Counted from the first letter of the stretch, positions 2,701-25,217 are shown. The stretch: DNA of 25,918 nt from a virus (UHGV-0362220), one strand, 5' to 3'. Notes: generated from the letters alone by a model not told the origin. Numbers and translations are program-made.

Positions 2701-2707
2701 TCCACAA

Positions 2708-2733
2708 ATAAAAAAGGCACCATTTCTGGTGCC
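2708..2733 (-). terminator. tJ-like intrinsic terminator between J and stf
   Basis: Minus-strand RNA: stem GGCACC (2733..2728), loop AGAAAU, stem GGUGCC (2721..2716), then UUUUUUAUUU. Ends 8 nt before the stf start codon. Confidence 0.5.
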
Positions 2734-2752
2734 CGAATTTGGGTTTTAAAAT

Positions 2753-5700
2753 TCAACTGATACTGATGCCGGCTGTTGATTTCTTCATCACGACAACAAG
2801 AAGGTCGCTGATACTGGTCGTTGGCGTCCAGTTATTTGCACCATATGAAGAAACATTGAAAGTCAGGGTGACATGGCCGTGTCCGGCAGGCATATCAATG
2901 ACTGATGAAAATACCCTGCTGACATCCGTCGCGGGTTGCTGAAAGATTTCCTGTCCGTTCTTCAGCACCTGCAGCTTACAGGTTGAATACCAGTATGACT
3001 GTTGGTTGTTGCTGTTGAAGTTTTCATGCTTACCACCGCGAAACAGAACGGGGGGGACGACTATCTGACGGTCAAAAGCCTGGTCATCGTACACAGTGAC
3101 CGTTATTGTACCGCTGGCATAACTGCCATTTCTCGGAAAGGCTTTTCCCACCGTTTTGACAATATCACCTTCAATCTGGTTAGCTGACAGTTTTCCCAGA
3201 ATCCGACAGTTCTGGTTAATCGTGACATTATTGAGCGTCCCGGAGTTCGCATTCACGTTACCGCTGATATCCGCATTTCTCGCAGAAAGTCGACCATCAG
3301 GTGTCAGTGAAAACGTTGGGGGATTGCCACCGCTGGTAATGGTGGGAGCCGTCAGATATTTCAGGAACACTTCGTTCATGAATATCTGATCGCCCTGCCC
3401 AACAAACATCGGCTTTGTATTGCCATTCGCAGGATTAATCATCGCAATCCTGTCCGCCGCCAGCAGCACCTGACTCTGCATACCGTCAGGGGTATTCTCA
3501 ATACCGGCACCAATACCCGCGATATAAAGGCGTCCGTCCTGCATCTGCTGCAGCTTCACAGCCCACATGCTGTTCAGGTTATTATTTGTATCAACCTGAA
3601 CCTTCTGTATCTGCTGGATCGCTGCACTCTGGTCTTCCAGTTTCTTATTGACGGTCTGCGTGATTTCATTGCTGACATCCGTAATGGACGTCCTGATTTC
3701 AGCCAGGTCAGGCGCAAGCTGACCGTTATCAATCTGCGTCCACAACTCCTGAGCCAGATGGGTTTTCCCTATCTCTCCTTTGAAAAAATCCAGATAGCCG
3801 GATGCATCATCACTCGGCTGGCCAACAGCCTCCACAAATGCCGATTTGCCAACGGTGTTCACACTGCGAATGTAAAAATAATAATCATGGCCCGGTTTGA
3901 TATTGATACTGGCGGCTATCCAGTACAGCGCCGTACCAAGATAACGCGCGCTGGCTTCAACCTGCCTGATATCCGCAATCCGCTTTTCCGAGAACCAGAA
4001 CTCAAACTGTACCGTCGGATCATAAACGGCAAGATGCGGCGTTGCGGTTATCTGAAAATAGCCCGGCGTCAGCTCAATCCGCGATGGCGCTGCCGGTGCG
4101 GCAATCCGGAACGATACCGACGCCGGATCCCCCTGCTGCCCCCACGCATTTACCGCCCGGACTGTCAGCCTGTAGTTCCCCAGCGCCAGTTGCCTGAAGC
4201 GGTATGTGGTTTCCGTCGTCCTGGCCGTGCTGACCAGCCGCTCACTGCCGTCATCCGCTGCCACGGTCAGGCGAAGCATAAAGCTCACCCCCTTCACCAC
4301 CTTCGGTGTGTCCCATCGCGCCAGCACCTGATATTCCCCGCTGTCTGCGGTGACTTCTGCGGTCAGGTGCTGCACCGCGGGCGGCGTGACACCATTCACC
4401 GTGCCACTCTGTTCGCCGTCAAAGTGCGCCCCGTTATCCACGATGGTCTCTTTTTCCGGCACATGCTGCACGGCGGTGATGGCATACGTGCCGTCGTCGT
4501 TTTCACGGATACTCACGCAGCGGAACAGTCGCTGGCGCAGCGTCGGCAGCTTCAGCCCCCATACGCTGTATTCAGCAACACCGTCAGGAACACGGCTCAC
4601 TTTCACCTTCACGCCGTCGGTGACGGACTGAACCTCCACGCTGACCGGATTGCCACTTCCGTCAACCAGGCTTATCAGCGTGGTACCGGAGGATGGCAGC
4701 GTGATTTCACGGTCGAGCGTCAGCGTCCGGGTCTGGCTGTTCACCGCCAGCACACGACCACCGGTGCTGATACCGGCATAGTCATCATCGCAGATTTCAA
4801 TGACATCCCCCGGTACATGGCGAAGCCCTTCAGCACCCACGCTGAAGTCCACGGTCTGCGTTTCCAGCAGCTCCGTTTTAATCAGCCACAGCCCGGCGCG
4901 GTGTGCCTGCCCCCGGCTGGTACAGCCAAAGGCATCCATCTTCGTGACGTTACGGCCGTAACGGGCAATGGCCTGCGTATCCTCCACGAGCTCTGTCGCC
5001 GTCTCCCAGCCGTTATCCGGGTCAATCCAGTTCACCTCAACGGCATTATGGCGGTCCTTCAGGGCGCTGAAGCTGTAGCGGAACGGCGCGCCATCATCCG
5101 GCATCACCACATTACTGCGGTTATAGGTCCACACCTTATCTGATGGTCGGTCCTGCACGAACGTCAGCGTCTGCCCGTTCCATACCGGCATACAGCGCAT
5201 CGCCGAGCAGAAATCACTGAGCACATCCCACGCCTTGCGCTGTGTGGTCAGGTACGCATTACAGGTAATGCGCGGCTCCGTGCCGCCAAAGCCGTCCGGC
5301 ACCGACTGGTCGCAGTACTGGCCGATGACATACAGCGCCCATTTATCCACATCCGCCGCACCAAGACGTTTCCCCATGCCGTAGCGCGGATGGGTCAGCA
5401 TATCCCACAGACACCAGGCCATGTTGTTGCTGTATGCCGGTTTTAACGTTCCGTCCCAGATACCGCTGTATTGCCGCGTCTGCGGGTTATAGTTCGACGG
5501 CACCTGCAGAATGCGCCCGCGAAGATGATAATTACGGCTCACCTGCTGGCTGCCGAACTGCTCCGAGTCCACCTGCACGCCAACCAGTGCCGTGTTCGGG
5601 TAGCACTGTTTCACATCGATGATTTCGGTGTATGACGACCAGAGCGTTTTGTTCAGCAGCTGGTCTGTGGTGCTGTCCGGCGTCATCCTGCGCATCCGGA

Positions 5701-6250: not shown

Positions 6251-6277
6251 AACGATAAAACCGCCCGGAGGCGGTTT
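6251..6277 (-). terminator. weak hairpin plus U-rich tract between I and J
   Basis: Plus-strand stem CCGCC (6261..6265), loop CGGA, GGCGG (6270..6274), extendable by A-U pairs; on the minus strand followed by UUUUAUCGUUUAU then the J SD (GGAG) and start. Confidence 0.3.
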
Positions 6278-11600: not shown

Positions 11601-11863
11601 GCCAGAGAAATCAGGTGTCCGGTGGCAAAGGCACCTGCAAATGCCCCCGCCGTTCCGGCAGCTGAAGCGCGGATTTCCGTCAACTGGCTGTTCAGCTCAG
11701 CCAGGGCGCGTCGCTGCACCCGGGCGACTGCGGCAGCCTGACGCCCGCCATTCTGCAGGGTCCGGTAATATTCACTGCCCATGCGGGAAGCCCGCTGGAT
11801 CTCCGACTGGAATGACTGCGAATTTGCCGAAATTTTGATAATCAGTTCACGTAACGTCGCCAT
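8621..11863 (-). CDS. H: tail tape measure protein (1080 aa)
   Basis: Long, mostly alpha-helical A/Q/E/R-rich protein with a Gly-rich hydrophobic segment, located between G-T and M. Length implies a tail somewhat longer than lambda (H is 853 aa there). Confidence 0.9.
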   Translation of the reverse strand: MATLRELIIKISANSQSFQSEIQRASRMGSEYYRTLQNGGRQAAAVARVQRRALAELNSQLTEIRASAAGTAGAFAGAFATGHLISLADEWSSVNARLKQASQSSDEFSSSQKVLMDISQRTGTAFSDNAALFARSAASMREYGYSADDVLKVTEAISTGLKISGASTAEAGSVITQFSQALAQGVLRGEEFNSVNESGDRIVRALAAGMGVARKDLKAMADDGKLTADKVVPALISQLGVLRDEYAAMPETVSDGITKVENAFMAWVGGANEASGATKTLSGVLNGVAGNIDNVATAAGALVAVGVARYFGNMASGAVSATAGLVTAARNEVALAEAQLRGTQIATARARAAVYRAQQAVAAARGTEMQIAAEARLAATQERLNRNIAARTAAQNELNSTTAVGSRLMTGALGLVGGVPGLVMLGAAAWYTLYQNQEQARESARQYALTIDEIAHKTPSMSLPEASDNEGRTRAALAEQNRLIDEQASRVKSLQEKIAGYQYVLANPGWTTGDGFMINHLTSVKTVTEGLSQATEQLAVEQSRLAQMQEKAQSIQDVLAGLEDRRVALIRQQAAEQNKVYQSMLVMNGQHTEFNRLLGLGNELLQQRQGLVNVPLRLPQATLDDKQQSALTKTERELALSRLKGEEKERARLGYAADDLGFVGDSYQEARQRYISNALEAWRNNEANKPKSRGGKSETEKAEDSFSRLLKQQKEQLALAGQNTELAKLKYQTAQGELKTLTEMQKQELLRNAALIDQQKIREQLRSREETLKNDNVAARASNEAELLGYGQGERARERMRELQQIRDSFRQKDADLQSQYQTGDISEDFYRQARAQNAQYLSERLKDQAAFYAESDAQRADWQKGLQEGLSNWVDNASDYASQAAQLATEGISGMVNNITEMLNGNKVEWRNWASSVLQEISKVLMNAAIVNGIKTAANGMSGAGGFIGSIGDWLGGAVANAKGGVYTSANLSAYSNSIVDTPTYFAFAKGAGLMGEAGPEAIMPLTRAADGSLGVRAVGSMNGSAGLVYSPVYHIAIQNDGANGQIGAEAAGSLVQLIDQRVQAVMLSMRRDGGMLSG

Positions 11864-11881
11864 TCACCTTTCTCCGGGCGT

Positions 11882-11902
11882 AAAAAAACCGCCTCAGCGG
11901 TT
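11882..11902 (-). terminator. hairpin plus U7 tract between T and H
   Basis: Minus-strand RNA: AACCGC, loop UGAG, GCGGUU, then UUUUUUU (plus 11888..11882), then SD GGAGAAAGGUGA and the H AUG at 11863. Confidence 0.4.
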
Positions 11903-11910
11903 CTCATCAT

Positions 11911-13331: not shown

Positions 13332-13359
13332 GATAATAAAAAACCCGCACGCGGCGGGG
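13332..13359 (-). terminator. hairpin plus U6 tract just upstream of the major tail protein gene
   Basis: Minus-strand RNA: stem CCCGC, loop CGCGU, stem GCGGG (plus 13344..13358), then UUUUUUAUUAU, then SD AGGAGG and the V start at 13321. Confidence 0.4.
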
Positions 13360-13387
13360 TATGGGTTTTGTAGAAAAAAAGAAAAAG

Positions 13388-13732
13388 TCACACCGTGACC
13401 TGAAACTCCAGGGTTGCACGGTAACAGCGGTTTTCCGGAATATAGTCCTGCATTTCACTGACGGATCCCGGGGCCAGCAGCATTATGGCTTCACGGGCGT
13501 CCTGACGTATCTGACGCGCCTGCGTCACAGTCCCGGCATAAACGTCTATCTGCACCGACACTGAGGACTCCGCCTGCCCGCCCATCACGTCCGCAGACAC
13601 CGATGAAATCAGGCTGAAAACCACCCACGGAAGCGCCACCGACGGCCTGCCATCCAGCAGGGGGACCACATACGGGTACACCTGCCCGCCGGCAAGATGC
13701 GCCAGATGAGGATACAAATCCGCCTCCGTCAT
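13388..13732 (-). CDS. tail terminator / neck protein candidate (gpU-equivalent position)
   Basis: 114-aa ORF between the gp10-like gene and the major tail gene, 4-nt overlap with the upstream gene. Call is positional only. Confidence 0.45.
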   Translation of the reverse strand: MTEADLYPHLAHLAGGQVYPYVVPLLDGRPSVALPWVVFSLISSVSADVMGGQAESSVSVQIDVYAGTVTQARQIRQDAREAIMLLAPGSVSEMQDYIPENRCYRATLEFQVTV

Positions 13733-14531: not shown

Positions 14532-14858
14532 TCATAACACCGTCGGACAACGCAAATCGTAAATCAGCACGGAAACAGAAAACGGCAGCTCCCCCTGAAG
14601 CAGTTCTTCCCGCTCCGCAAGATCCGGATTCCGGTACAGCATCCCGGTCAGTCGCATGGCAGCCCCCTTCATCCGGGTTAATGCCTCGCCCGGGATCAGT
14701 TCACCGTCCTCACGGATCACTTTATCCCGGCTGCCCTGAATGTAGGCCAGCAGCACGGCGGTAGCCTGACGAACCTTGTCCATCAGCATGTCATCATCCG
14801 CGTCATGGTCGACACGCAGATGTGCCTTGATCTCTTCCAGTGTCAGTAATGCCGTCAT
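14532..14858 (-). CDS. head-tail connector protein (gp6-like)
   Basis: N-terminal LTLEEIKAHLRVDHDADDDML motif typical of gp6-like connectors; directly downstream of and overlapping the portal gene. Confidence 0.7.
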   Translation of the reverse strand: MTALLTLEEIKAHLRVDHDADDDMLMDKVRQATAVLLAYIQGSRDKVIREDGELIPGEALTRMKGAAMRLTGMLYRNPDLAEREELLQGELPFSVSVLIYDLRCPTVL

Positions 14859-17116
14859 TTTCCGCCTCCTGCATCCCGCCCACGTTTTGCAGCCAGGGTC
14901 CAGGCTGATGAATGAGCTTCTCCGGGTTTATCTTCGGTCATACTGTTGCAGTGCCACAGCGAGCCCCCCCACGTCACCGTATCGCCGGGGTGGTAGGTTT
15001 CACCGGCTCTGAACACACCGCGGTAGAGCATCACCGGCAGGGAAAATGTTTTTTCCGTACGCTGGCCACTGCTCTGCCGGACCACCACAGAGAACAACCG
15101 CTCACCCGTCATGCTGACGTCAATATCCGCCACCCCGTCAACCAGGCATTCCCATCCCCGCATCCCGTGCGTTTTTTCATACGCCCGCCAGAGTCCGCCC
15201 TGGTGTGTGGCATACGTGCCCCGGGGAAAGGATTTTTGATCGTCAATGGCGGGGAGTATTTCCAGAGCCGTGGCATCACGCCCGTCCTGCGGAGCCGGCA
15301 GGGCACTCACCGCATCCAGAACCGCCTTCTGCAGAACATCCGGATCGTAGTCACGACCATCACGCGGAACATGAATATGGCTTACCGCCTCCTTCACCAT
15401 CTGTTCAAGCATCGGACGCACATCATCCGGGGTGAGACTTTTACCGTCCGCCGGCTGCGGAATATTTGCGACCGCATCATTCACCGCCTGCTGCAGTACA
15501 TCCGGATCATAATCACGACCATCACGCGGTACCGGAATGGCCCCCACAGCGTCATCCACCATCGCCTGCAGAACCGGACGCACCTCATCCACCGTCACAT
15601 GCTTCTGTAATACCGCCGACAGGGAAGTCAGTTTCTCTTCAAACGCTTGTGCCTGCGAGGCCATCTTCCCCTCAAATGTGCGCTGTAAATCCGCCAGCAC
15701 TGTGGAGAATTCTTCTCCCAGTGCACGAATAATGGACAGTTCCCGTTCCGTCATTTTCTCAGTATCCCCCCTGAACATCGCTTTCACCGCATCATGCTCT
15801 GTTTCACTGATTGCCTTATTACCGTCAGATGCGCCGTCAGGCAGCTGTGATGAAACTGTTTTCCCGGCAGACGCGAACGGATCCTCACGGGCATCACGAC
15901 GGGACAGCGCCTCCAGACTGTAGTTCTGCTGCTGAAGATACAGTGCATCACCGCCGGCCAGGGGCGGCAGGTTCTCCCGTTTACGGGCCTCATTGGGCGT
16001 GAGAAGCGTATTTTTCACCGCATCCCCCAGCGTTTTCATGCGCCGCTCACTGTCCATTCTCAGCAGCGTGGTGACATCAAATTCTGTACTCTCGTTTTCC
16101 CCCGTTTCCAGCGCCTCATCCAGTAACAGTTCAATGGACTCAATCAGCGTCTGCAGGCACTGGGAATAATACTGCTGCTCCAGCGCCTCCACGTTGTCAC
16201 TGGAAGGCGGTTGTCCCACGCCAATCTTGTAGGCCGGGACACGGAACACCGAACAGACAATTTCAGCGGTCATCTTCAGTTGTTCCACCGTCTGCGCATC
16301 CACAGGTGAAAACGTCGTGGGGTTGTATTTTGCCCCGTTGCTCAGAATGGCCGTTTTCCCCGCATTTTCGCCTGTATACCCGCTGTCCCAGTTGCTCTTC
16401 AGTTTTTTCGCATTTTCTTCCGTAATACTGCCGGGGATCTCAATCACCCCGGACGGCCTGCCGCCATTTCTGAAAAAAGACGTCGAATTTTCCTGAATAT
16501 GATGCCCCTGCGTGGCCGCCAGCCCGGCGGCATACACCGGCGGCAATCCTATAAGCGGATGAAAAAAACAGTTAAACCGGTCGTGGATCACTTCCCGGGC
16601 AGGCACCGTCACCGCCTCCGTGATCCCGCAGTTCCGGTCCGGCGTGATGCGGTAGAACACCTCGCCGTCATCCGCCACCAGAGGTTCAACCCGGCTCCAG
16701 TCCAGAATACGCAGTTCTTTGATCTGCCCCCGGGCATTACGGATTTTCAGCACCACCGTATTGCCATGACGCAGTTTGGCGTTCAGCCACAGTTCAAAAA
16801 ACTGGATGCGGTTCTGCTGGGCGTTGGGACGACGACAGAGGCGGGCAATATCCCCCCGGCGCGTTTCCCTGCGTATCCCATGCGCATCCGTCTGCATAAG
16901 ACGCAGCCGCATTTTGGCGATATCCTGGGATATCAGCGAAATACATGCAAACACCGCATGAAAGGAGAGGACGGCTTCAGGATCGGCTTTCACGCCCTGC
17001 TGCCAGGCGCCGGAAAAGGGCTCAGCCACCGCCTGAAACAGGCTGGTCCAGCCCGCCTCTCTTACGTCACGTCCTGATTTCTGGTTTTTTCGGGTTCGCC
17101 GTAAAAGGTTCCACAT
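14855..17116 (-). CDS. portal protein (HK97 family) with ~350-aa C-terminal extension
   Basis: N-terminal ~400 aa carry HK97-portal signatures (FFRNGGRPSGVIEIPG..., ILSNGAKYNP..., FRVPAYKIGVG..., LTPNEARKRENLPPLAGGD). The extension holds two ~54-aa tandem repeats (VPRDGRDYDPDVLQ.AV.DAV) and an unrecognised terminal domain. Confidence 0.8.
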   Translation of the reverse strand: MWNLLRRTRKNQKSGRDVREAGWTSLFQAVAEPFSGAWQQGVKADPEAVLSFHAVFACISLISQDIAKMRLRLMQTDAHGIRRETRRGDIARLCRRPNAQQNRIQFFELWLNAKLRHGNTVVLKIRNARGQIKELRILDWSRVEPLVADDGEVFYRITPDRNCGITEAVTVPAREVIHDRFNCFFHPLIGLPPVYAAGLAATQGHHIQENSTSFFRNGGRPSGVIEIPGSITEENAKKLKSNWDSGYTGENAGKTAILSNGAKYNPTTFSPVDAQTVEQLKMTAEIVCSVFRVPAYKIGVGQPPSSDNVEALEQQYYSQCLQTLIESIELLLDEALETGENESTEFDVTTLLRMDSERRMKTLGDAVKNTLLTPNEARKRENLPPLAGGDALYLQQQNYSLEALSRRDAREDPFASAGKTVSSQLPDGASDGNKAISETEHDAVKAMFRGDTEKMTERELSIIRALGEEFSTVLADLQRTFEGKMASQAQAFEEKLTSLSAVLQKHVTVDEVRPVLQAMVDDAVGAIPVPRDGRDYDPDVLQQAVNDAVANIPQPADGKSLTPDDVRPMLEQMVKEAVSHIHVPRDGRDYDPDVLQKAVLDAVSALPAPQDGRDATALEILPAIDDQKSFPRGTYATHQGGLWRAYEKTHGMRGWECLVDGVADIDVSMTGERLFSVVVRQSSGQRTEKTFSLPVMLYRGVFRAGETYHPGDTVTWGGSLWHCNSMTEDKPGEAHSSAWTLAAKRGRDAGGGK

Positions 17117-17283
17117 TCGCCATGCTCCGCATCACGTTTCTTTTTCTGACCTGCCGGACGTCGCACCGTGATGTACTCCGCCTTTCCCAGGCGAACCAGC
17201 ACCTCCGCACACGGCTGTGCCACATCACGGATATCCCCGGCCCGGGCATCATGCGTGCCCTGCAGATATCGGATCTTTGCCAT
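17062..17283 (-). CDS. hypothetical protein (73 aa) between capsid and portal genes
   Basis: ATG at 17283 downstream of an SD-hairpin arrangement; overlaps the annotated portal start by 55 nt; basic and lysine-rich. Coding status uncertain. Confidence 0.3.
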   Translation of the reverse strand: MAKIRYLQGTHDARAGDIRDVAQPCAEVLVRLGKAEYITVRRPAGQKKKRDAEHGECGTFYGEPEKTRNQDVT

Positions 17284-17293
17284 AACCTGTTAC

Positions 17294-17311
17294 GGGAGGC
17301 GCACGCCTCCC
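17294..17311 (-). promoter_or_regulatory. perfect 8-bp stem / 2-nt loop hairpin between an SD and the next start codon
   Basis: GGGAGGCG ca CGCCTCCC. On the minus strand: UGA (MCP stop), UAAGGAGGAC, hairpin, GUAACAGGUU, AUG at 17283. The hairpin contains GGGAGG and sits between the AGGAGG SD and the AUG. Confidence 0.5.
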
Positions 17312-17327
17312 GTCCTCCTTATCAGAC

Positions 17328-19265
17328 TCAGCCGCCGGACGCACTGCCGTAGTTCACTCCGGTGATCACCGCCACCGCCGCAGTACGGCGACGACGCCAG
17401 TTGATCCAGCGCTCCGCACGGATGGCCACGCTGCCTGTCTGGAACATGGAAACCAGCTCCACCGGGGACGGCGTGGTACTGTCGCCGGTCGGCTCAGACT
17501 GCATTTCCAGTGATGCCTCGCGGGACATATCCACTGCCACGCCGCCGTCATCCGCCAGATAAATATCCGGGGCATTCACCAGCACCAGCTGGTCACCCAC
17601 GTACTGGGAGACAATCACCGGCAGCCCCTGGAAGGAGCCACCCAGCAGGGTCATGTCCGGGTATTCCTTCTGACCCAGCGCATTTTTACGCATGGACAGT
17701 GCCAGGGCATTGGTGCTGGACATCAGCCAGACCGCACCGGTGGGCTGCAGGTTTGCTGCCACAAACTGTCCAAACGCAGCCTCTGCATCCGCATCCGGGT
17801 TACCGGTTGATGCCGTGCCCTTCACATCATGGGTGATGGACGCCGGGGAGACATCTGCCACTGCGGCTTTTTTCGGGTCCACAAAGTCTGTATCCAGACG
17901 CGCCACCACCGCTTCCGCCAGCGCATTACGGACCAGTGCATCAGCAGCCGGACTGGAAAAACGGATCAATTCTTCCGTCAGTACCGCAATGGCCGACACC
18001 TTCGCATGACTGAAGGTGATGGATTCAAAATCAAACTTCGTCAGGGGTTTTGCCTTACCCTCACCCACCCAGCCGGCAGCACCGCCGGACACCTGGGCGT
18101 GCACACGGATATTGAATGGCACCTGACGAAGTGCAGGGATCCCGCCCTGACCAAATCGCCCGATAATGGTCTGCGGACGCAGGTAATCAATAAAGTCCTG
18201 TGCGTATTCCTGATATTCAGACAGGCTGCCTGCCCACTGCGGATCCGTGGTGGTCCCCGCGCCCACTGCCGATTTCAGGACATGATGCAGACGACTGTCA
18301 TCCGGATACTGACGACGGGCCACTTCCAGGGCTTCAGATCGGACGCCTTTAGCCGCAGCCAGCGATTTGGCAAAGCGGGCGAAGCCAATCCCCTTATCCA
18401 GTTTCTGCTCCACACGGATCACCGGCGCAGAAGCCACCGCGGCCACATTCCCGTTACCGGCCTGTTTCACCGGCTGCGCCGTGGCGGCCTTACCGGCTTC
18501 CAGTTCACGCAGGCGCTTCAGGTGCGCATCCACCTGACGGATTTCCGCTGCGGTGTTGTCGTAATGCTCTTCCTCCTCCACATCCAGCGTGCGCCCTTCC
18601 TCTGCGGCTTTGGTCATGACCTCCTCAAGGGAGGCTGCCAGCGCTGCACGCTTGTTTTCAAAACTTTTAATCTGTTCGCCAATATTCATTATGGTCTTTT
18701 CCTTATGAAAAACGGTTGTTGACTGTGCCGCAGCGCCGGCAGAAGATGCGATTTTCACCACCGGTTTCCGGTTGCCGGACGCGGCAGAAAACGGGCGGTC
18801 GTAAGATTTAATGGTCCGGATGGTGCATTCCGCATTCGCGGGCACGGTGACGGCAGACACCTCCATCAGTTCCCAGCGCAGAAAATGCAGTCCGCCTCCG
18901 TCCAGAAAGGTGTATTCATGGGGACGGAAGCCCACGGACAGCCCCCTGACCAGCCCGGTCTTAATGGCCGCCCAGACCTCATCCAGCCGGGCAGCCAGTT
19001 GCGACGGCATATCCGGTACGGGCTTCACCAGTGTTGCCGTGATTTCCAGCCCTTCGCTGACCCGGCGCACCGTACACTGCCCCACCGGGCGGGAATGGTC
19101 ATGCTGCCAGAGAAACGGGATCGCACTGCCAAACTCCGCGCCCTCCGGCTCCAGGATGTCACCATCCCGATCCGGAGAAGGCGTTGACGCAATCCCGGTG
19201 ATCACCCGTTCATCCTCACTGAAGGATTTCACCGTCAGCAGGGAACAGGCCCGTTTAAGAGTCAC
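17328..19265 (-). CDS. prohead protease (S78 family) fused in frame to an HK97-type major capsid protein
   Basis: N-terminus has S78 protease motifs (QHDHSRPVGQ, GLSVGF, ELMEVSAVTVPAN); then a coiled-coil segment and a capsid-like C-terminal half. GTG start at 19265 with AGGAGG 5 nt upstream. An internal in-frame ATG (MNIGEQIKSFENKRAA...) has AAGGAAAAG upstream. Confidence 0.8.
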   Translation of the reverse strand: MTLKRACSLLTVKSFSEDERVITGIASTPSPDRDGDILEPEGAEFGSAIPFLWQHDHSRPVGQCTVRRVSEGLEITATLVKPVPDMPSQLAARLDEVWAAIKTGLVRGLSVGFRPHEYTFLDGGGLHFLRWELMEVSAVTVPANAECTIRTIKSYDRPFSAASGNRKPVVKIASSAGAAAQSTTVFHKEKTIMNIGEQIKSFENKRAALAASLEEVMTKAAEEGRTLDVEEEEHYDNTAAEIRQVDAHLKRLRELEAGKAATAQPVKQAGNGNVAAVASAPVIRVEQKLDKGIGFARFAKSLAAAKGVRSEALEVARRQYPDDSRLHHVLKSAVGAGTTTDPQWAGSLSEYQEYAQDFIDYLRPQTIIGRFGQGGIPALRQVPFNIRVHAQVSGGAAGWVGEGKAKPLTKFDFESITFSHAKVSAIAVLTEELIRFSSPAADALVRNALAEAVVARLDTDFVDPKKAAVADVSPASITHDVKGTASTGNPDADAEAAFGQFVAANLQPTGAVWLMSSTNALALSMRKNALGQKEYPDMTLLGGSFQGLPVIVSQYVGDQLVLVNAPDIYLADDGGVAVDMSREASLEMQSEPTGDSTTPSPVELVSMFQTGSVAIRAERWINWRRRRTAAVAVITGVNYGSASGG

Positions 19266-19282: not shown

Positions 19283-19303
19283 AAAAAAACCGCCGGAGCG
19301 GTT
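19283..19303 (-). terminator. hairpin plus U7 tract just upstream of the capsid gene SD
   Basis: Minus-strand RNA: AACCGC, loop UCCG, GCGGUU, then UUUUUUUAUUUUC, then AGGAGG and the GTG start at 19265. Confidence 0.4.
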
Positions 19304-19328
19304 CGTGATGGTTACAGTGTGAACAGGG

Positions 19329-21626: not shown

Positions 21627-21746
21627 GTTAACTGCTGCCTGGTTAACATTTGCTGAAAAAGCCTGTTAACATTTTTTCCGCACAACAAACTGAATAATAA
21701 AGATAAAAACCGCAAAAATGCCCGGGCAGCCAGTTAACATGTTAAC
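21627..21746. promoter_or_regulatory. cluster of five GTTAAC palindromes upstream of terS; candidate terminase recognition (cos/pac-proximal) region
   Basis: GTTAAC at 21627, 21642, 21665, 21733 and 21741, two of them in the direct repeat GTTAACATTT, within the 290-bp HNH-terS intergenic region. Confidence 0.4.
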
Positions 21747-21840
21747 TGCCCTGAAACGGGAATTTTTTCTCTGCGTGAGAGGGGGCGCGGTGTCCAAAGC
21801 GATCGTTTTTTACGCCGGATGATACCCCCCCCGGGTTGGG

Positions 21841-23995: not shown

Positions 23996-24529
23996 TTATC
24001 TGTCGATTCCCCAGCACGCCAGCGCGCTCTCCTGGTCACGACGGAATACCTGACCGTAACAGTTATTTGAGCGAATACGGCAGTCTCTGCCACCGTCCTT
24101 AATCCACCAGCGAATCGCTTCGCATGCTCCCCTGCGATCACCTGCATTAATTCGTCTGTAAAACGTCGACGGGAAACACTTACCGGGACCAATGTTGTAC
24201 GGACAGAATGACGCGATCCCCGCTTTCTGGGGTTCGGTCAATGGCACTTTGATGTTTTTCTCCACCCATGCCAGCGCCTTATCACGCTCAATGGCGTTAA
24301 CCCGGTCGCATTTTTCCTTCGACAACTTCATGCCCGGAACGACAGGTTTGCCATCCACCAGGATGGCACCGCGGCAGATGGTCCAGATACCCGCGCCATC
24401 ACGGTATGCCGTGGTGTGGTTACCTTCCTTTTCATCCAGAAACTGGTCGAGAATGTCAGGCGCAGGCGCACCAGCGGCAATCAGCGCCAGAACGGCAGCC
24501 GACAGGCCGTATCTGATTTTTGCGTTCAT
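23996..24529 (-). CDS. endolysin, T4-lysozyme (GH24) type with N-terminal signal-anchor-release (SAR) segment
   Basis: Catalytic triad spacing E-9-D-6-T in LDEKEGNHTTAYRDGAGIWT; Gly/Ala-rich weakly hydrophobic N-terminus (GLSAAVLALIAAGAPA); eight cysteines in the catalytic domain. Confidence 0.9.
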   Translation of the reverse strand: MNAKIRYGLSAAVLALIAAGAPAPDILDQFLDEKEGNHTTAYRDGAGIWTICRGAILVDGKPVVPGMKLSKEKCDRVNAIERDKALAWVEKNIKVPLTEPQKAGIASFCPYNIGPGKCFPSTFYRRINAGDRRGACEAIRWWIKDGGRDCRIRSNNCYGQVFRRDQESALACWGIDR

Positions 24530-24907: not shown

Positions 24908-25217
24908 TTATTCCCGGTAGTTTTCCTCTGTAGGTTATCAACACATCCTGCGCCTCTAAAATTACGGGGCGCTTTTCCGGCGACTGCTCATCCCCTTCAC
25001 ATAACCCGGCAGCAACATCCAGGAAGACCTGTCTGATGCTCCTTCTGGCTGCTGCCTCATAAAACTCCAGCGCGGCACCTTCAACACGGTCCAGCGAGAT
25101 GTCCAGGTCAAAAATTTCACCGTCAAAGCGTTTTTTGTCCCGTAACGCTAAAGTTACCGTAACTTTATTCTCAAAATTGCGGATCCCTTTCACAATCAGT
25201 TCATAGTTTTGAGTCAT
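24873..25217 (-). CDS. YdfR-like hypothetical protein (114 aa) between holin and endolysin
   Basis: ATG 25217 lies 4 nt after the holin stop with GGGGAGAG upstream. Similar position to ydfR between the holin and lysozyme genes of E. coli prophage Qin (recalled, not verified). Confidence 0.55.
   Translation of the reverse strand: MTQNYELIVKGIRNFENKVTVTLALRDKKRFDGEIFDLDISLDRVEGAALEFYEAAARRSIRQVFLDVAAGLCEGDEQSPEKRPVILEAQDVLITYRGKLPGIITGSLKSPPKW

What the first reader, a model, noticed from the sequence alone, without database searches (positions are those of the whole stretch)
17284..17327. Perfect 8-bp hairpin inserted between an SD and the next start codon
After the capsid stop, the minus-strand RNA reads UAAGGAGGAC, then GGGAGGCG-ca-CGCCUCCC (perfect 8-bp stem, 2-nt loop), then 10 nt, then AUG. 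The AGGAGG is about 30 nt from the AUG in linear sequence but would come within range if the hairpin forms, as in the structured SD-AUG spacers described for some phage T4 genes. Alternatively the hairpin may be an RNase III site or a 3' stabiliser of the capsid message. The downstream 73-aa ORF overlaps the portal start, so the real target may be portal translation.
Basis: seen in the sequence. Interest (0 to 1): 0.4.

Follow-up and report, generated by a model that had tools for sequence, protein, structure and literature searches.

The report
Hairpin-bridged ribosome binding site after capsid gene
In this Shiga-toxin-type E. coli prophage, a very stable RNA hairpin sits between a strong Shine-Dalgarno sequence and the start of a small conserved gene just after the capsid gene; dozens of related phages keep the same layout, and it matches the experimentally proven "split" ribosome binding site of phage T4 gene 25.

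Summary
On the minus strand, the 44-nt gap between the protease-capsid gene and a 73-aa ORF reads UGA-GUC-UGA-UAAGGAGG-[ACGGGAGGC-GUGC-GCCUCCCGU]-AACAGGUU-AUG. A 9-bp hairpin alone is about what chance gives in 26 kb. Comparison makes it meaningful.

- Of 189 unique sequences downstream of homologous capsid genes, 171 have a stem of at least 7 bp, with 84 different stem sequences.
- In 79 unique Enterobacterales-type sequences, the only Shine-Dalgarno (SD) sequence abuts the 5' side of the hairpin (-1 to +3 nt).
- The stem-to-AUG spacer is 5-11 nt (mode 7) and usually has no SD of its own.
- With the hairpin excised, SD-AUG spacing is 5-8 nt in 66 of 79, the same range as the direct spacing in distant relatives that have hairpin, then SD, then AUG.
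- E. coli variants keep the stem through an A-U to G-C swap and G.U wobbles.
- T4 gene 25, read directly, has the same layout: SD, 1 nt, 7-bp stem with a 4-nt loop, 8 nt, AUG.

The downstream ORF is a real gene (dN/dS about 0.2). In relatives it is stop-start coupled to the portal gene.

Verdict: a new, widespread member of the T4-type split ribosome binding site, probably also a capsid-mRNA 3' stabiliser or terminator remnant. None of this has been tested experimentally.

The parts
17328..19265 (-). Upstream cistron: 645-aa prohead protease + major capsid fusion. The stop is UGA at 17330-17328, followed in frame by GUC, UGA (17324-17322) and UAA (17321-17319).
   Evidence: ORF list; Pfam Peptidase_S78 + Phage_capsid; sequence.
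17314..17321 (-). Shine-Dalgarno sequence UAAGGAGG (core AGGAGG 17319-17314), 30 nt upstream of the AUG in linear sequence and directly abutting the hairpin.
   Evidence: Sequence. Predicted mostly unpaired. An SD is conserved at -1 to +3 nt from the stem in 79 unique relatives.
17305..17313 (-). 5' arm of the hairpin, ACGGGAGGC.
   Evidence: MFE and centroid folds. E. coli variants keep the pairing: A-U to G-C at the stem base, and G.U wobbles.
17301..17304 (-). Tetraloop GUGC. In variants it is GUGU, GCUA, GCGA, GAGA or GAGC; in other genera mostly GAAA or UUCG.
17292..17300 (-). 3' arm of the hairpin, GCCUCCCGU.
17284..17291 (-). 8-nt spacer AACAGGUU between the stem and the AUG. It holds no conserved SD (AGUAACUG or AGUAACAG in other E. 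coli variants) and no U-tract.
   Evidence: The site is not called terminator-like.
17062..17283 (-). Downstream cistron: 73-aa ORF (AUG 17283-17281), PHROG family phrog_829, function unknown. Codon 56, GAA (17118-17116), replaces the ancestral stop, so the ORF runs 18 codons into the portal gene.
   Evidence: dN/dS about 0.2.
14855..17116 (-). Portal gene (753 aa). The start ATG 17116-17114 is confirmed by homology (MWNxF...). In relatives it is stop-start overlapped (TGATG/TAATG) with the small ORF.
   Evidence: Pfam Phage_portal; tblastn and junction sequences.

Best explanation
The element is an intercistronic RNA hairpin inside a split (hairpin-bridged) translation initiation region.

On the late, minus-strand transcript, the only strong SD for the small gene after the capsid gene (UAAGGAGG, 17321-17314) lies 30 nt from its AUG (17283). 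The very stable 9-bp GUGC hairpin (17313-17292, about -17 to -19.5 kcal/mol) loops out 22 nt. The 30S subunit would then see the SD about 8 nt from the AUG and could initiate on the 73-aa ORF.

In relatives, ribosomes finishing that ORF are handed to the overlapping portal start. In the window the portal keeps its own GGAG 8 nt upstream, inside the small ORF.

The same hairpin most probably also marks the 3' end of the capsid cistron, as an exonuclease barrier or a remnant of an intrinsic terminator. That would help capsid mRNA and protein exceed portal.

Shown: the anatomy, its conservation and compensatory changes, the geometric match to canonical spacing and to T4 gene 25, and that the downstream ORF is a real gene.

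Inferred: that the ribosome uses the upstream SD across the folded hairpin, and that the hairpin stabilises capsid mRNA.
For: 1. Anatomy and fold: (z = -3.3; hairpin base-pairing probability about 1 and SD mostly unpaired).
2. Geometry in 79 unique class-A intergenic sequences from Enterobacterales prophages:
- stop to stem varies from 4 to 18 nt, but SD end to stem is -1 to +3 nt;
- stem to AUG is 5-11 nt (45 of 79 are 7, 18 of 79 are 8);
- linear SD-AUG distance is 23-32 nt, and hairpin-excised spacing is 5-8 nt in 66 of 79.
In distant relatives with the order hairpin, SD, AUG (class B), direct spacing is 4-9 nt in 28 of 35.
3. Ample divergence. Synonymous sites between the window and other genera are near saturation (pS about 0.7), and the loops, the spacer sequence and the stop-SD segment all vary.
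4. Stem maintained through change. In the E. coli clade, ACGGGAGGC/GCCUCCCGU versus GCGGGAGGC/GCUUCCCGC, plus C-to-U wobbles. Across genera, GGCGAGG/CCUCGCC, AAGUGGGGA/UCCCCACUU and AUGCGGGGG/CCCCCGCAU. 4 of 7 pairs show changes on both sides, matched by at most 2 of 500 shuffles. There are 84 distinct 5' arms among 171 hairpins.
5. RNA-specific tetraloops. GAAA accounts for 37 of 79 class-A loops, with GCGA, GAGA and UUCG among the rest; UUCG is the commonest loop in class B, 12 of 35.
6. Internal control. Five other junctions of the same operon combine a hairpin with a U-rich run. The four that have an SD are in the order hairpin, SD (4-8 nt), start. Only this junction is SD, hairpin, start.
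7. The AUG is the true start of a gene under purifying selection (dN/dS about 0.2). Its N-terminus is conserved in the Enterobacterales relatives, MxxIRYL.
8. Known precedent. T4 genes 38 (22 to 5 nt) and 25 (27 to 11 nt) were validated by mutagenesis and probing (PMC3014915). The T4 gene 25 region read directly is AAGAGG-C-[CUCAAAG-AGUU-CUUUGAG]-UUACUAUA-AUG, with the same 7-bp stem, 4-nt loop and 8-nt layout.
Against: - There are no experimental data for this element.
- The hairpin is much more stable than T4's (-17 to -19.5 against -7.4 kcal/mol) and is GC-rich with GNRA or UUCG loops. That is typical of terminators and stabilisers, so stabilisation could be the only selected function.
- In most relatives the last one or two G of the SD lie inside the stem.
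- In 28 of 79, the MFE fold pairs more than half of the SD core with the U-rich spacer.
- The stem core is nearly invariant within class A, so formal covariation is modest and confounded by relatedness.
- The small ORF could instead be initiated by reinitiation after capsid termination, or through the U-rich leader and an A-rich second and third codon.
- Whether a 30S subunit can accommodate a 22-nt, 9-bp GC hairpin has not been shown.
Confidence: 0.6

Rival explanations
1. The hairpin is only a cistron-boundary element for the capsid message: an intrinsic terminator (ancestrally) or a 3'-to-5' exonuclease barrier that lets capsid mRNA outlast the downstream portal region. The SD next to it plays no special hairpin-dependent role.
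For: - A hairpin within 70 nt of the capsid stop is present in 171 of 189 unique relatives, including lineages with no small ORF. It is often followed by a U-run.
- Stability is very high and the loops are GNRA or UUCG.
- Similar hairpin + U-run elements flank other highly expressed structural genes in the window.
- Differential stability through intercistronic hairpins is well established (malE-malF, puf operon; my own knowledge).
Against: - It does not explain why, in 79 unique sequences, the only SD lies within -1 to +3 nt of the 5' side of the stem, nor why the stem-AUG distance is held at 6-8 nt with no SD in it.
- A real, conserved gene starts there.
- The window's own version has no U-tract (2 T in 8 nt) and is not called a terminator, yet the stem is maintained by compensatory changes.
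- This role is compatible with the best explanation as a second function.
Confidence: 0.25
2. The small ORF is translated by ribosomes that have just terminated on the capsid gene (termination-reinitiation or 70S scanning). The SD just after the stop tethers the post-termination ribosome, and the hairpin merely shortens the path or blocks diffusion.
For: - Stop-to-AUG distance is only 31-47 nt in most class-A loci.
- In several relatives the stop codon is part of the SD (UAAGGAG).
- Coupling is the rule at the next junction, small ORF to portal, TGATG.
Against: - Stop-to-SD distance is variable (stop-to-stem 4-18 nt), while SD-hairpin-AUG geometry is fixed.
- Distant relatives place a normal SD next to the AUG, 14-50 nt after the hairpin, which indicates de novo initiation.
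- A -17 kcal/mol hairpin would hinder scanning.
Confidence: 0.07
3. The hairpin is an RNase III processing site.
For: Only the presence of a perfect stem in an intercistronic region.
Against: The stem is 9-10 bp here and 7-10 bp in class-A relatives. RNase III substrates need roughly two helical turns, about 20 bp (established knowledge). No longer enclosing helix is supported: outer pairing is no better than with shuffled flanks.
Confidence: 0.02
4. The SD drives a four-codon mini-ORF that starts at the GUG in the loop (GUG CGC CUC CCG UAA). Its stop lies 6 nt before the AUG, coupling the two.
For: In the window the GUG lies 9 nt after AGGAGG and the UAA is in frame.
Against: The loop GUG is absent from the other E. 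coli variants that have GCUA, GCGA or GAGA loops, and from all other genera (GAAA, UUCG). The GUG is also buried in a very stable stem-loop.
Confidence: 0.01
5. It is a chance palindrome, or a DNA-level protein-binding or recombination site with no RNA role.
For: A single 9-bp hairpin is expected about 0.76 times per 26 kb. The DNA is a perfect 10+2+10 palindrome.
Against: - The hairpin is conserved at the same place while its sequence changes: 84 distinct arms.
- Pairing is kept through G.U wobbles, which work only in RNA of this strand.
- GNRA and UUCG loops.
- The region is not a repeated element in the window.
Confidence: 0.03

Closest known systems
Phage T4 gene 25 split translation initiation region at the gene 26-25 junction (Nivinskas et al. 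1999; Malys & Nivinskas 2009; reviewed in PMC3014915)
   Same: The anatomy is the same. SD (AAGAGG), 1 nt, 7-bp stem with a 4-nt loop, 8 nt, AUG. The linear spacing of 27 nt is reduced to a functional distance. It is also restricted to a sub-clade, with distant relatives using ordinary sites.
   Different: - The T4 hairpin is weak (-7.4 kcal/mol against -17 to -19.5) and AU-rich.
- It lies inside the coding sequence of the upstream gene (gene 26 stops at TAATG), so translating ribosomes melt it. Here the hairpin is untranslated, lies after the upstream stop, and resembles a terminator or stabiliser.
- There is no sequence homology, and the phage lineage (temperate HK97-like head module) and gene are different.
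Phage T4 gene 38 translation initiation region
   Same: A hairpin between SD and AUG reduces a 22-nt spacing to 5 nt and is needed for efficient initiation (PMC3014915).
   Different: I did not read the sequence here. Its context is a tail-fibre assembly gene.
E. coli thrS 'split ribosome binding site' (Sacerdot et al., discussed in PMC3936740)
   Same: The ribosome accommodates a folded hairpin between two single-stranded binding segments without unfolding it.
   Different: In thrS the SD and AUG are adjacent, the upstream segment is a standby or enhancer region, and the hairpin is a regulatory operator bound by ThrRS.
Intrinsic terminators and stabiliser hairpins after major capsid genes or between cistrons (T7 T-phi after gene 10; malE-malF REP; puf operon; my own knowledge)
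   Same: A GC-rich stem-loop directly after a very highly expressed structural gene. Distant relatives of this locus have the full terminator form with a U-run, followed by a separate SD.
   Different: The window's hairpin has no U-tract, and the downstream gene's SD is on the 5' side of the hairpin.

Membership tests
Hairpin-bridged (split) translation initiation region, T4 gene 25/38 type | Linear SD-to-start spacing beyond the functional range (more than about 15 nt) | tested here: met
   30 nt in the window; 23-32 nt in 79 unique relatives.
Hairpin-bridged (split) translation initiation region, T4 gene 25/38 type | A stable stem-loop fills the gap, and its formation reduces spacing to a functional 5-11 nt | tested here: met
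   9-bp stem with base-pairing probability about 1. Excised spacing is 8 nt in the window and 5-8 nt in 66 of 79 relatives. T4 gene 25, read directly, has 1 + 8 nt.
Hairpin-bridged (split) translation initiation region, T4 gene 25/38 type | No alternative SD at normal distance from the start codon | tested here: met
   The class-A rule excluded GGAG, GAGG or AGGA in the 5-11 nt spacer; only one short-spacer relative (L103) has such a motif there. The window's AGG, 2 nt from the AUG, is too close and is not conserved (AGUAACUG in other variants).
Hairpin-bridged (split) translation initiation region, T4 gene 25/38 type | Phylogenetic conservation of the structure with compensatory changes | tested here: met
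   A-U to G-C and G.U changes in the E. coli clade. 4 of 7 pairs show changes on both sides, matched by at most 2 of 500 shuffles. The stem core is mostly invariant, so the signal is modest.
Hairpin-bridged (split) translation initiation region, T4 gene 25/38 type | Stem-destabilising mutations lower translation, compensatory mutations restore it, and the structure is confirmed by probing | not testable with these tools
   Needs reporter fusions, toeprinting, and DMS or SHAPE probing.
Intrinsic (Rho-independent) terminator | GC-rich stem-loop | tested here: met
Intrinsic (Rho-independent) terminator | U-tract immediately 3' of the stem | tested here: not met
   The window has AACAGGUU, 2 U in 8 nt, and is not called by the terminator scan. 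Among class-A relatives, only 12 of 79 have at least 5 T in 8 nt. Many distant relatives do have U-runs.
RNase III processing site | About 20 bp or more of double-stranded RNA | tested here: not met
   The stem is 9-10 bp. There is no supported enclosing helix.
Any curated RNA family (Rfam 15) | A score at or above the family's gathering threshold | tested here: not met
   The best hit is sroE at 17.8 bits against a threshold of 51, E = 0.28.
Dispersed repeated palindrome (REP-like element) | Multiple copies in intergenic regions of the same genome segment | tested here: not met
   The covariance model built from the element finds one significant site in the window. The palindrome is unique.

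The most novel reading that the evidence does not exclude
The element would be a bifunctional cistron boundary that is also an operator.
[quoted passage not shown] Its confident AlphaFold core (residues 1-40) superposes on the rRNA-binding N-terminal domain of ribosomal protein L9, and it carries a basic tail.
- That protein would bind the hairpin and SD to autoregulate its own translation and, through coupling, portal translation. This would set the capsid:portal stoichiometry.
Probability: 0.06. Interest if true: 0.7.

Novelty: new member of a known kind. Interest (0 to 1): 0.45.

Why it matters
The review I read (PMC3014915) cites only two validated natural hairpin-bridged Shine-Dalgarno sites, T4 genes 25 and 38, both in one group of lytic phages.

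This locus would be an independent, much more widespread family.
- It occurs in temperate HK97-like head modules of many Enterobacterales.
- It is present in 1244 of 5426 complete E. coli genomes, in up to 7 copies, and in Stx1, Stx2a and Stx2c phage records.

It also differs in an instructive way. The bridging hairpin is extremely stable and untranslated, and it doubles as the boundary of the most highly expressed late cistron. It therefore offers a natural test of how large and stable a structure the 30S subunit can accommodate between SD and start. It would also show how phages combine mRNA punctuation and translational control in about 40 nt.

There is a practical consequence. SD-based start predictors and gene callers can miss the small gene. 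Several phage records do not annotate it (for example phage 2851 and Stx2 phage 1717), and few protein entries for it exist outside E. coli.

Tried and rejected
- Mini-ORF from the loop GUG: rejected, because the loop is not conserved.
- RNase III site: rejected on stem length.
- Terminator in the window: the scan does not call it.
- Significance of the hairpin from the window alone: not significant, 1 observed against 0.76 expected.
- RNAalifold on the MAFFT alignment recovered only 2 pairs. Stems of different length are put in different registers, and the covariance-model realignment improved this only slightly. I therefore relied on register-free hairpin detection.
- A second, outer helix enclosing SD and hairpin, seen in some MFE folds: no better than shuffled flanks, 4.57 against 4.67 pairs.
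- Rfam: nothing above threshold.
- The alignment of small proteins was too divergent to seed a locus search.
- Function of the small protein:
  - Pfam gave nothing for the window protein, and PHROGs placed it in a family of unknown function.
  - A scan of the aligned relatives hit only DUF7210 (2 members) and E3_binding in the Marinobacter protein.
  - A PDB sequence search gave nothing significant.
  - The only lead is a fold resemblance to the L9 N-terminal domain.
- Literature searches for other split ribosome binding sites or for this locus found only the T4 and thrS cases.

Full report
**Context.** The window is the late (minus-strand) operon of a lambdoid E. coli prophage whose head module is that of the Stx phages BP-4795, YYZ-2008 and 2851, at 99-100% identity over the region. 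The gene order is:
- small terminase, 21550-20987;
- large terminase, 20990-19329;
- a 645-aa prohead-protease + major-capsid fusion, 19265-17328;
- a 73-aa ORF, 17283-17062;
- a 753-aa portal, 17116-14855;
- connector and tail genes.

The finding's coordinates, 17284-17327, are exactly the 44-nt gap between the capsid fusion and the 73-aa ORF.

**Observation.** The minus-strand RNA reads UGA GUC UGA UAAGGAGG ACGGGAGGC GUGC GCCUCCCGU AACAGGUU AUG.
- The loop letters 'ca' are the plus-strand reading.
- The true capsid stop is the first UGA. The UAA that begins the SD is the third in-frame stop.
- The 30-nt SD-AUG distance, the 10 nt after the 8-bp stem, and the 55-nt overlap of the 73-aa ORF with the portal start are all correct.
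- Taken alone, a hairpin of at least 9 bp is about what chance gives in 26 kb: 1 observed against 0.76 expected.
- The whole SD-hairpin-AUG arrangement is rarer, 1 against 0.13. The 45-nt segment folds better than all 200 shuffles, z = -3.3.

**Comparative evidence.** I collected about 345 loci encoding relatives of the capsid C-terminal half, from genomes of other species and from IMG/VR contigs. I located the capsid stop in 335 of them and, where present, the homologue of the small ORF. Three results matter.

1. *A hairpin after the capsid stop is nearly universal.*
- 171 of 189 unique 70-nt downstream regions have an uninterrupted stem of at least 7 bp, with 84 different 5' arms.
- Mean MFE z-score is -2.35, against -0.69 for coding-region controls.
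- This includes lineages with no small ORF, where the hairpin is a textbook terminator with a U-run.

2. *The loci with the small ORF fall into two architectures*.
- Class B: 35 unique sequences, mostly distant non-enterobacterial lineages. The order is stop, hairpin, often a U-run, a separate SD, AUG. The SD lies 4-9 nt from the AUG in 28 of 35.
- Serratia and Rouxiella loci have the same hairpin-first order, with only a weak GAGAG/GAGCG purine run near the AUG.
- Class A: 79 unique sequences, including the E. coli clade, Pantoea, Enterobacter, Citrobacter, Kluyvera, Buttiauxella, Erwinia and many metagenomic phages. The order is stop, a variable segment (stop to stem 4-18 nt), GGAG(G), hairpin, a short spacer, AUG.
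- In class A the SD core ends -1 to +3 nt from the stem.
- The stem is 7-10 bp with GAAA (37 of 79), GCGA, GAGA or UUCG loops.
- The spacer is 5-11 nt (7 nt in 45 and 8 nt in 18).
- Linear SD-AUG distance is 23-32 nt. With the hairpin excised it is 5-8 nt in 66 of 79, the same range as the direct spacing in class B.

3. *There has been ample time for this to decay.*
- Synonymous divergence of the adjacent small ORF between the window and other genera is about 0.7.
- The stop-SD segment, the loops and the spacer sequence all vary. The SD, the pairing and the two distances do not.
- Within the E. coli clade the stem base covaries: A-U in ACGGGAGGC/GCCUCCCGU against G-C in GCGGGAGGC/GCUUCCCGC.
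- C-to-U changes give G.U wobbles, and the loops drift through GUGC, GUGU, GCUA, GCGA, GAGA and GAGC.
- Across genera there are double changes such as GGCGAGG/CCUCGCC and AAGUGGGGA/UCCCCACUU.
- Formal counting gives 4 of 7 pairs with changes on both sides. At most 2 of 500 shuffles reach that count, and none reaches the covariation score. The signal is modest because the GC core is nearly invariant and MAFFT and Infernal put stems of different length in different registers.

**The downstream gene is real.**
- The 73-aa ORF belongs to the PHROG family phrog_829, of unknown function.
- Its first ~45 residues are conserved across genera (MAKIRYLQRTHDS..GD...V.D.CA.VLVLLGKAEY).
- dN/dS is about 0.2.
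- Within the Enterobacterales relatives the N-terminus aligns at the same AUG, and no nearer in-frame start is evident.

**Link to the portal.**
- In relatives the ORF is 51-58 aa and ends in TGATG or TAATG, overlapping the portal ATG. That is classic translational coupling.
- In the E. coli clade that stop has become GAA (17118-17116), so the ORF reads on for 18 codons.
- The portal keeps a GGAG 8 nt upstream of its ATG.

**Internal control.**
- Most genes of the same operon have an SD 4-8 nt from their start.
- Five other junctions combine a hairpin with a U-rich run: before the capsid gene (19304-19287), the major tail gene (13358-13344) and the genes starting at 11863, 6235 and 2700.
- The first four have the order hairpin, SD, start; the GUG at 2700 has no SD-like motif.
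- The capsid/small-ORF junction is the only one with the SD on the far side of the hairpin.

**Mechanism.** The best-supported reading is a split translation initiation region. The hairpin loops out 22 nt, so the strong SD (UAAGGAGG, predicted mostly single-stranded) sits about 8 nt from the AUG.

This is the mechanism established by mutagenesis, reporter fusions and DMS probing for T4 genes 38 (22 to 5 nt) and 25 (27 to 11 nt) (review PMC3014915). I read the T4 gene 26-25 junction directly. It is AAGAGG-C-[CUCAAAG-AGUU-CUUUGAG]-UUACUAUA-AUG: SD, 1 nt, a 7-bp stem with a 4-nt loop, 8 nt, AUG. That is essentially the same geometry as here. As in T4, the arrangement is confined to a sub-clade, while distant relatives use ordinary sites.

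**Differences from T4.**
- The hairpin here is far more stable (-17 to -19.5 against -7.4 kcal/mol).
- It is untranslated.
- It occupies the position where relatives have a terminator.

I therefore think it is bifunctional. It would be a 3' boundary for the capsid cistron, either an exonuclease barrier or a terminator remnant overridden by lambdoid late antitermination. That would favour capsid over portal expression. It would also be the scaffold of the next cistron's ribosome binding site. In the window the terminator role is not supported, because there is no U-tract and the scan does not call it.

**Rivals.**
- Stabiliser or terminator only (0.25). This explains the hairpin but not the fixed SD-stem and stem-AUG distances, nor the absence of any other SD.
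- Reinitiation by ribosomes terminating on the capsid gene (0.07). This fits the short distance, but not the variable stop-SD spacing or the class-B design.
- RNase III site. The stem is too short.
- Loop-GUG mini-ORF. It is not conserved.
- Chance or DNA-level palindrome. This is contradicted by conservation with sequence turnover, G.U wobbles and RNA tetraloops.

**Caveats.**
- In most class-A relatives the last one or two G of the SD are in the stem.
- In 28 of 79, the MFE fold pairs more than half of the SD core with the U-rich spacer.
- The class-A sequences are related to one another.
- Nothing has been tested experimentally.

**Novelty and verdict.**
- No Rfam family matches.
- Literature searches found no description of this element, or of split sites beyond T4 and thrS.
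- The element is widespread: 1244 of 5426 complete E. coli genomes, up to 7 copies each, and Stx1, Stx2a and Stx2c phage records.
- I rate it a new member of a known kind, of moderate interest. Confidence is 0.6 that the hairpin-bridged SD is functional, and higher that the hairpin is a selected RNA element.

Noticed in passing
window 17116-17118 (minus strand; codon 56 of the 73-aa ORF): In relatives the small ORF stops here with TGATG or TAATG overlapping the portal ATG. In the whole E. coli clade the stop is GAA, which extends the ORF by 18 codons into the portal gene and removes the stop-start coupling.
   Followed up: yes
window 17062-17283 (minus strand), residues 1-40 of the product: The AlphaFold model is confident for residues 1-40 (block mean pLDDT 91-95), with a beta-beta-alpha-beta fold and a disordered basic tail. 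Its top PDB matches are the N-terminal rRNA-binding domain of ribosomal protein L9 (rmsd about 1 A over 40 residues, 25-32% identity, Foldseek E about 0.07). Sequence searches do not recover L9.
   Followed up: partly
window 19287-19304, 13344-13358, 13385-13401, about 11880-11905, 6258-6277 and about 2705-2740 (minus strand): Other GC-rich hairpins with U-runs sit in intergenic gaps of the late operon, flanking the capsid and major tail genes. Most are followed by a canonical SD 4-8 nt before the next start; the GUG at 2700 has no SD-like motif. They may be antitermination-overridden terminators or mRNA stabilisers that punctuate the operon.
   Followed up: partly
window 17319-17330 (minus strand): There are three in-frame stops within four codons after the capsid gene (UGA GUC UGA UAA). 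One IMG/VR variant (L039) lacks the middle six bases. This may be insurance against UGA readthrough.
   Followed up: no
L023:3462-3797 (Marinobacter) and proteins P0061, P0069, P0071, P0073: In distant relatives the homologue of the small protein is about 110 aa long and carries a C-terminal E3-binding (peripheral subunit-binding) domain, PF02817.
   Followed up: no
window 14855-17116 (minus strand): The portal ORF is 753 aa, but the Pfam portal domain covers only residues 54-382, leaving an uncharacterised C-terminal half of about 370 aa. In BP-4795 the same region is annotated as two 'portal protein' ORFs, and in some Stx phages as a pseudogene.
   Followed up: no
window 21731-21748, 5255-5272, 24349-24368, 25149-25167: Other perfect 8-bp palindromes, for example CAGTTAACATGTTAACTG about 180 nt upstream of the small terminase start. 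I did not examine them.
   Followed up: no
L124, L125, L206 and L002-type loci (capsid stop to small-ORF ATG): In some relatives the U-run after the hairpin can pair with the GGAGAG or AAGGAG SD through A-U and G.U pairs, extending the helix to 12-13 bp. That would mask the SD. Overall, though, outer pairing is no better than with shuffled flanks.
   Followed up: partly
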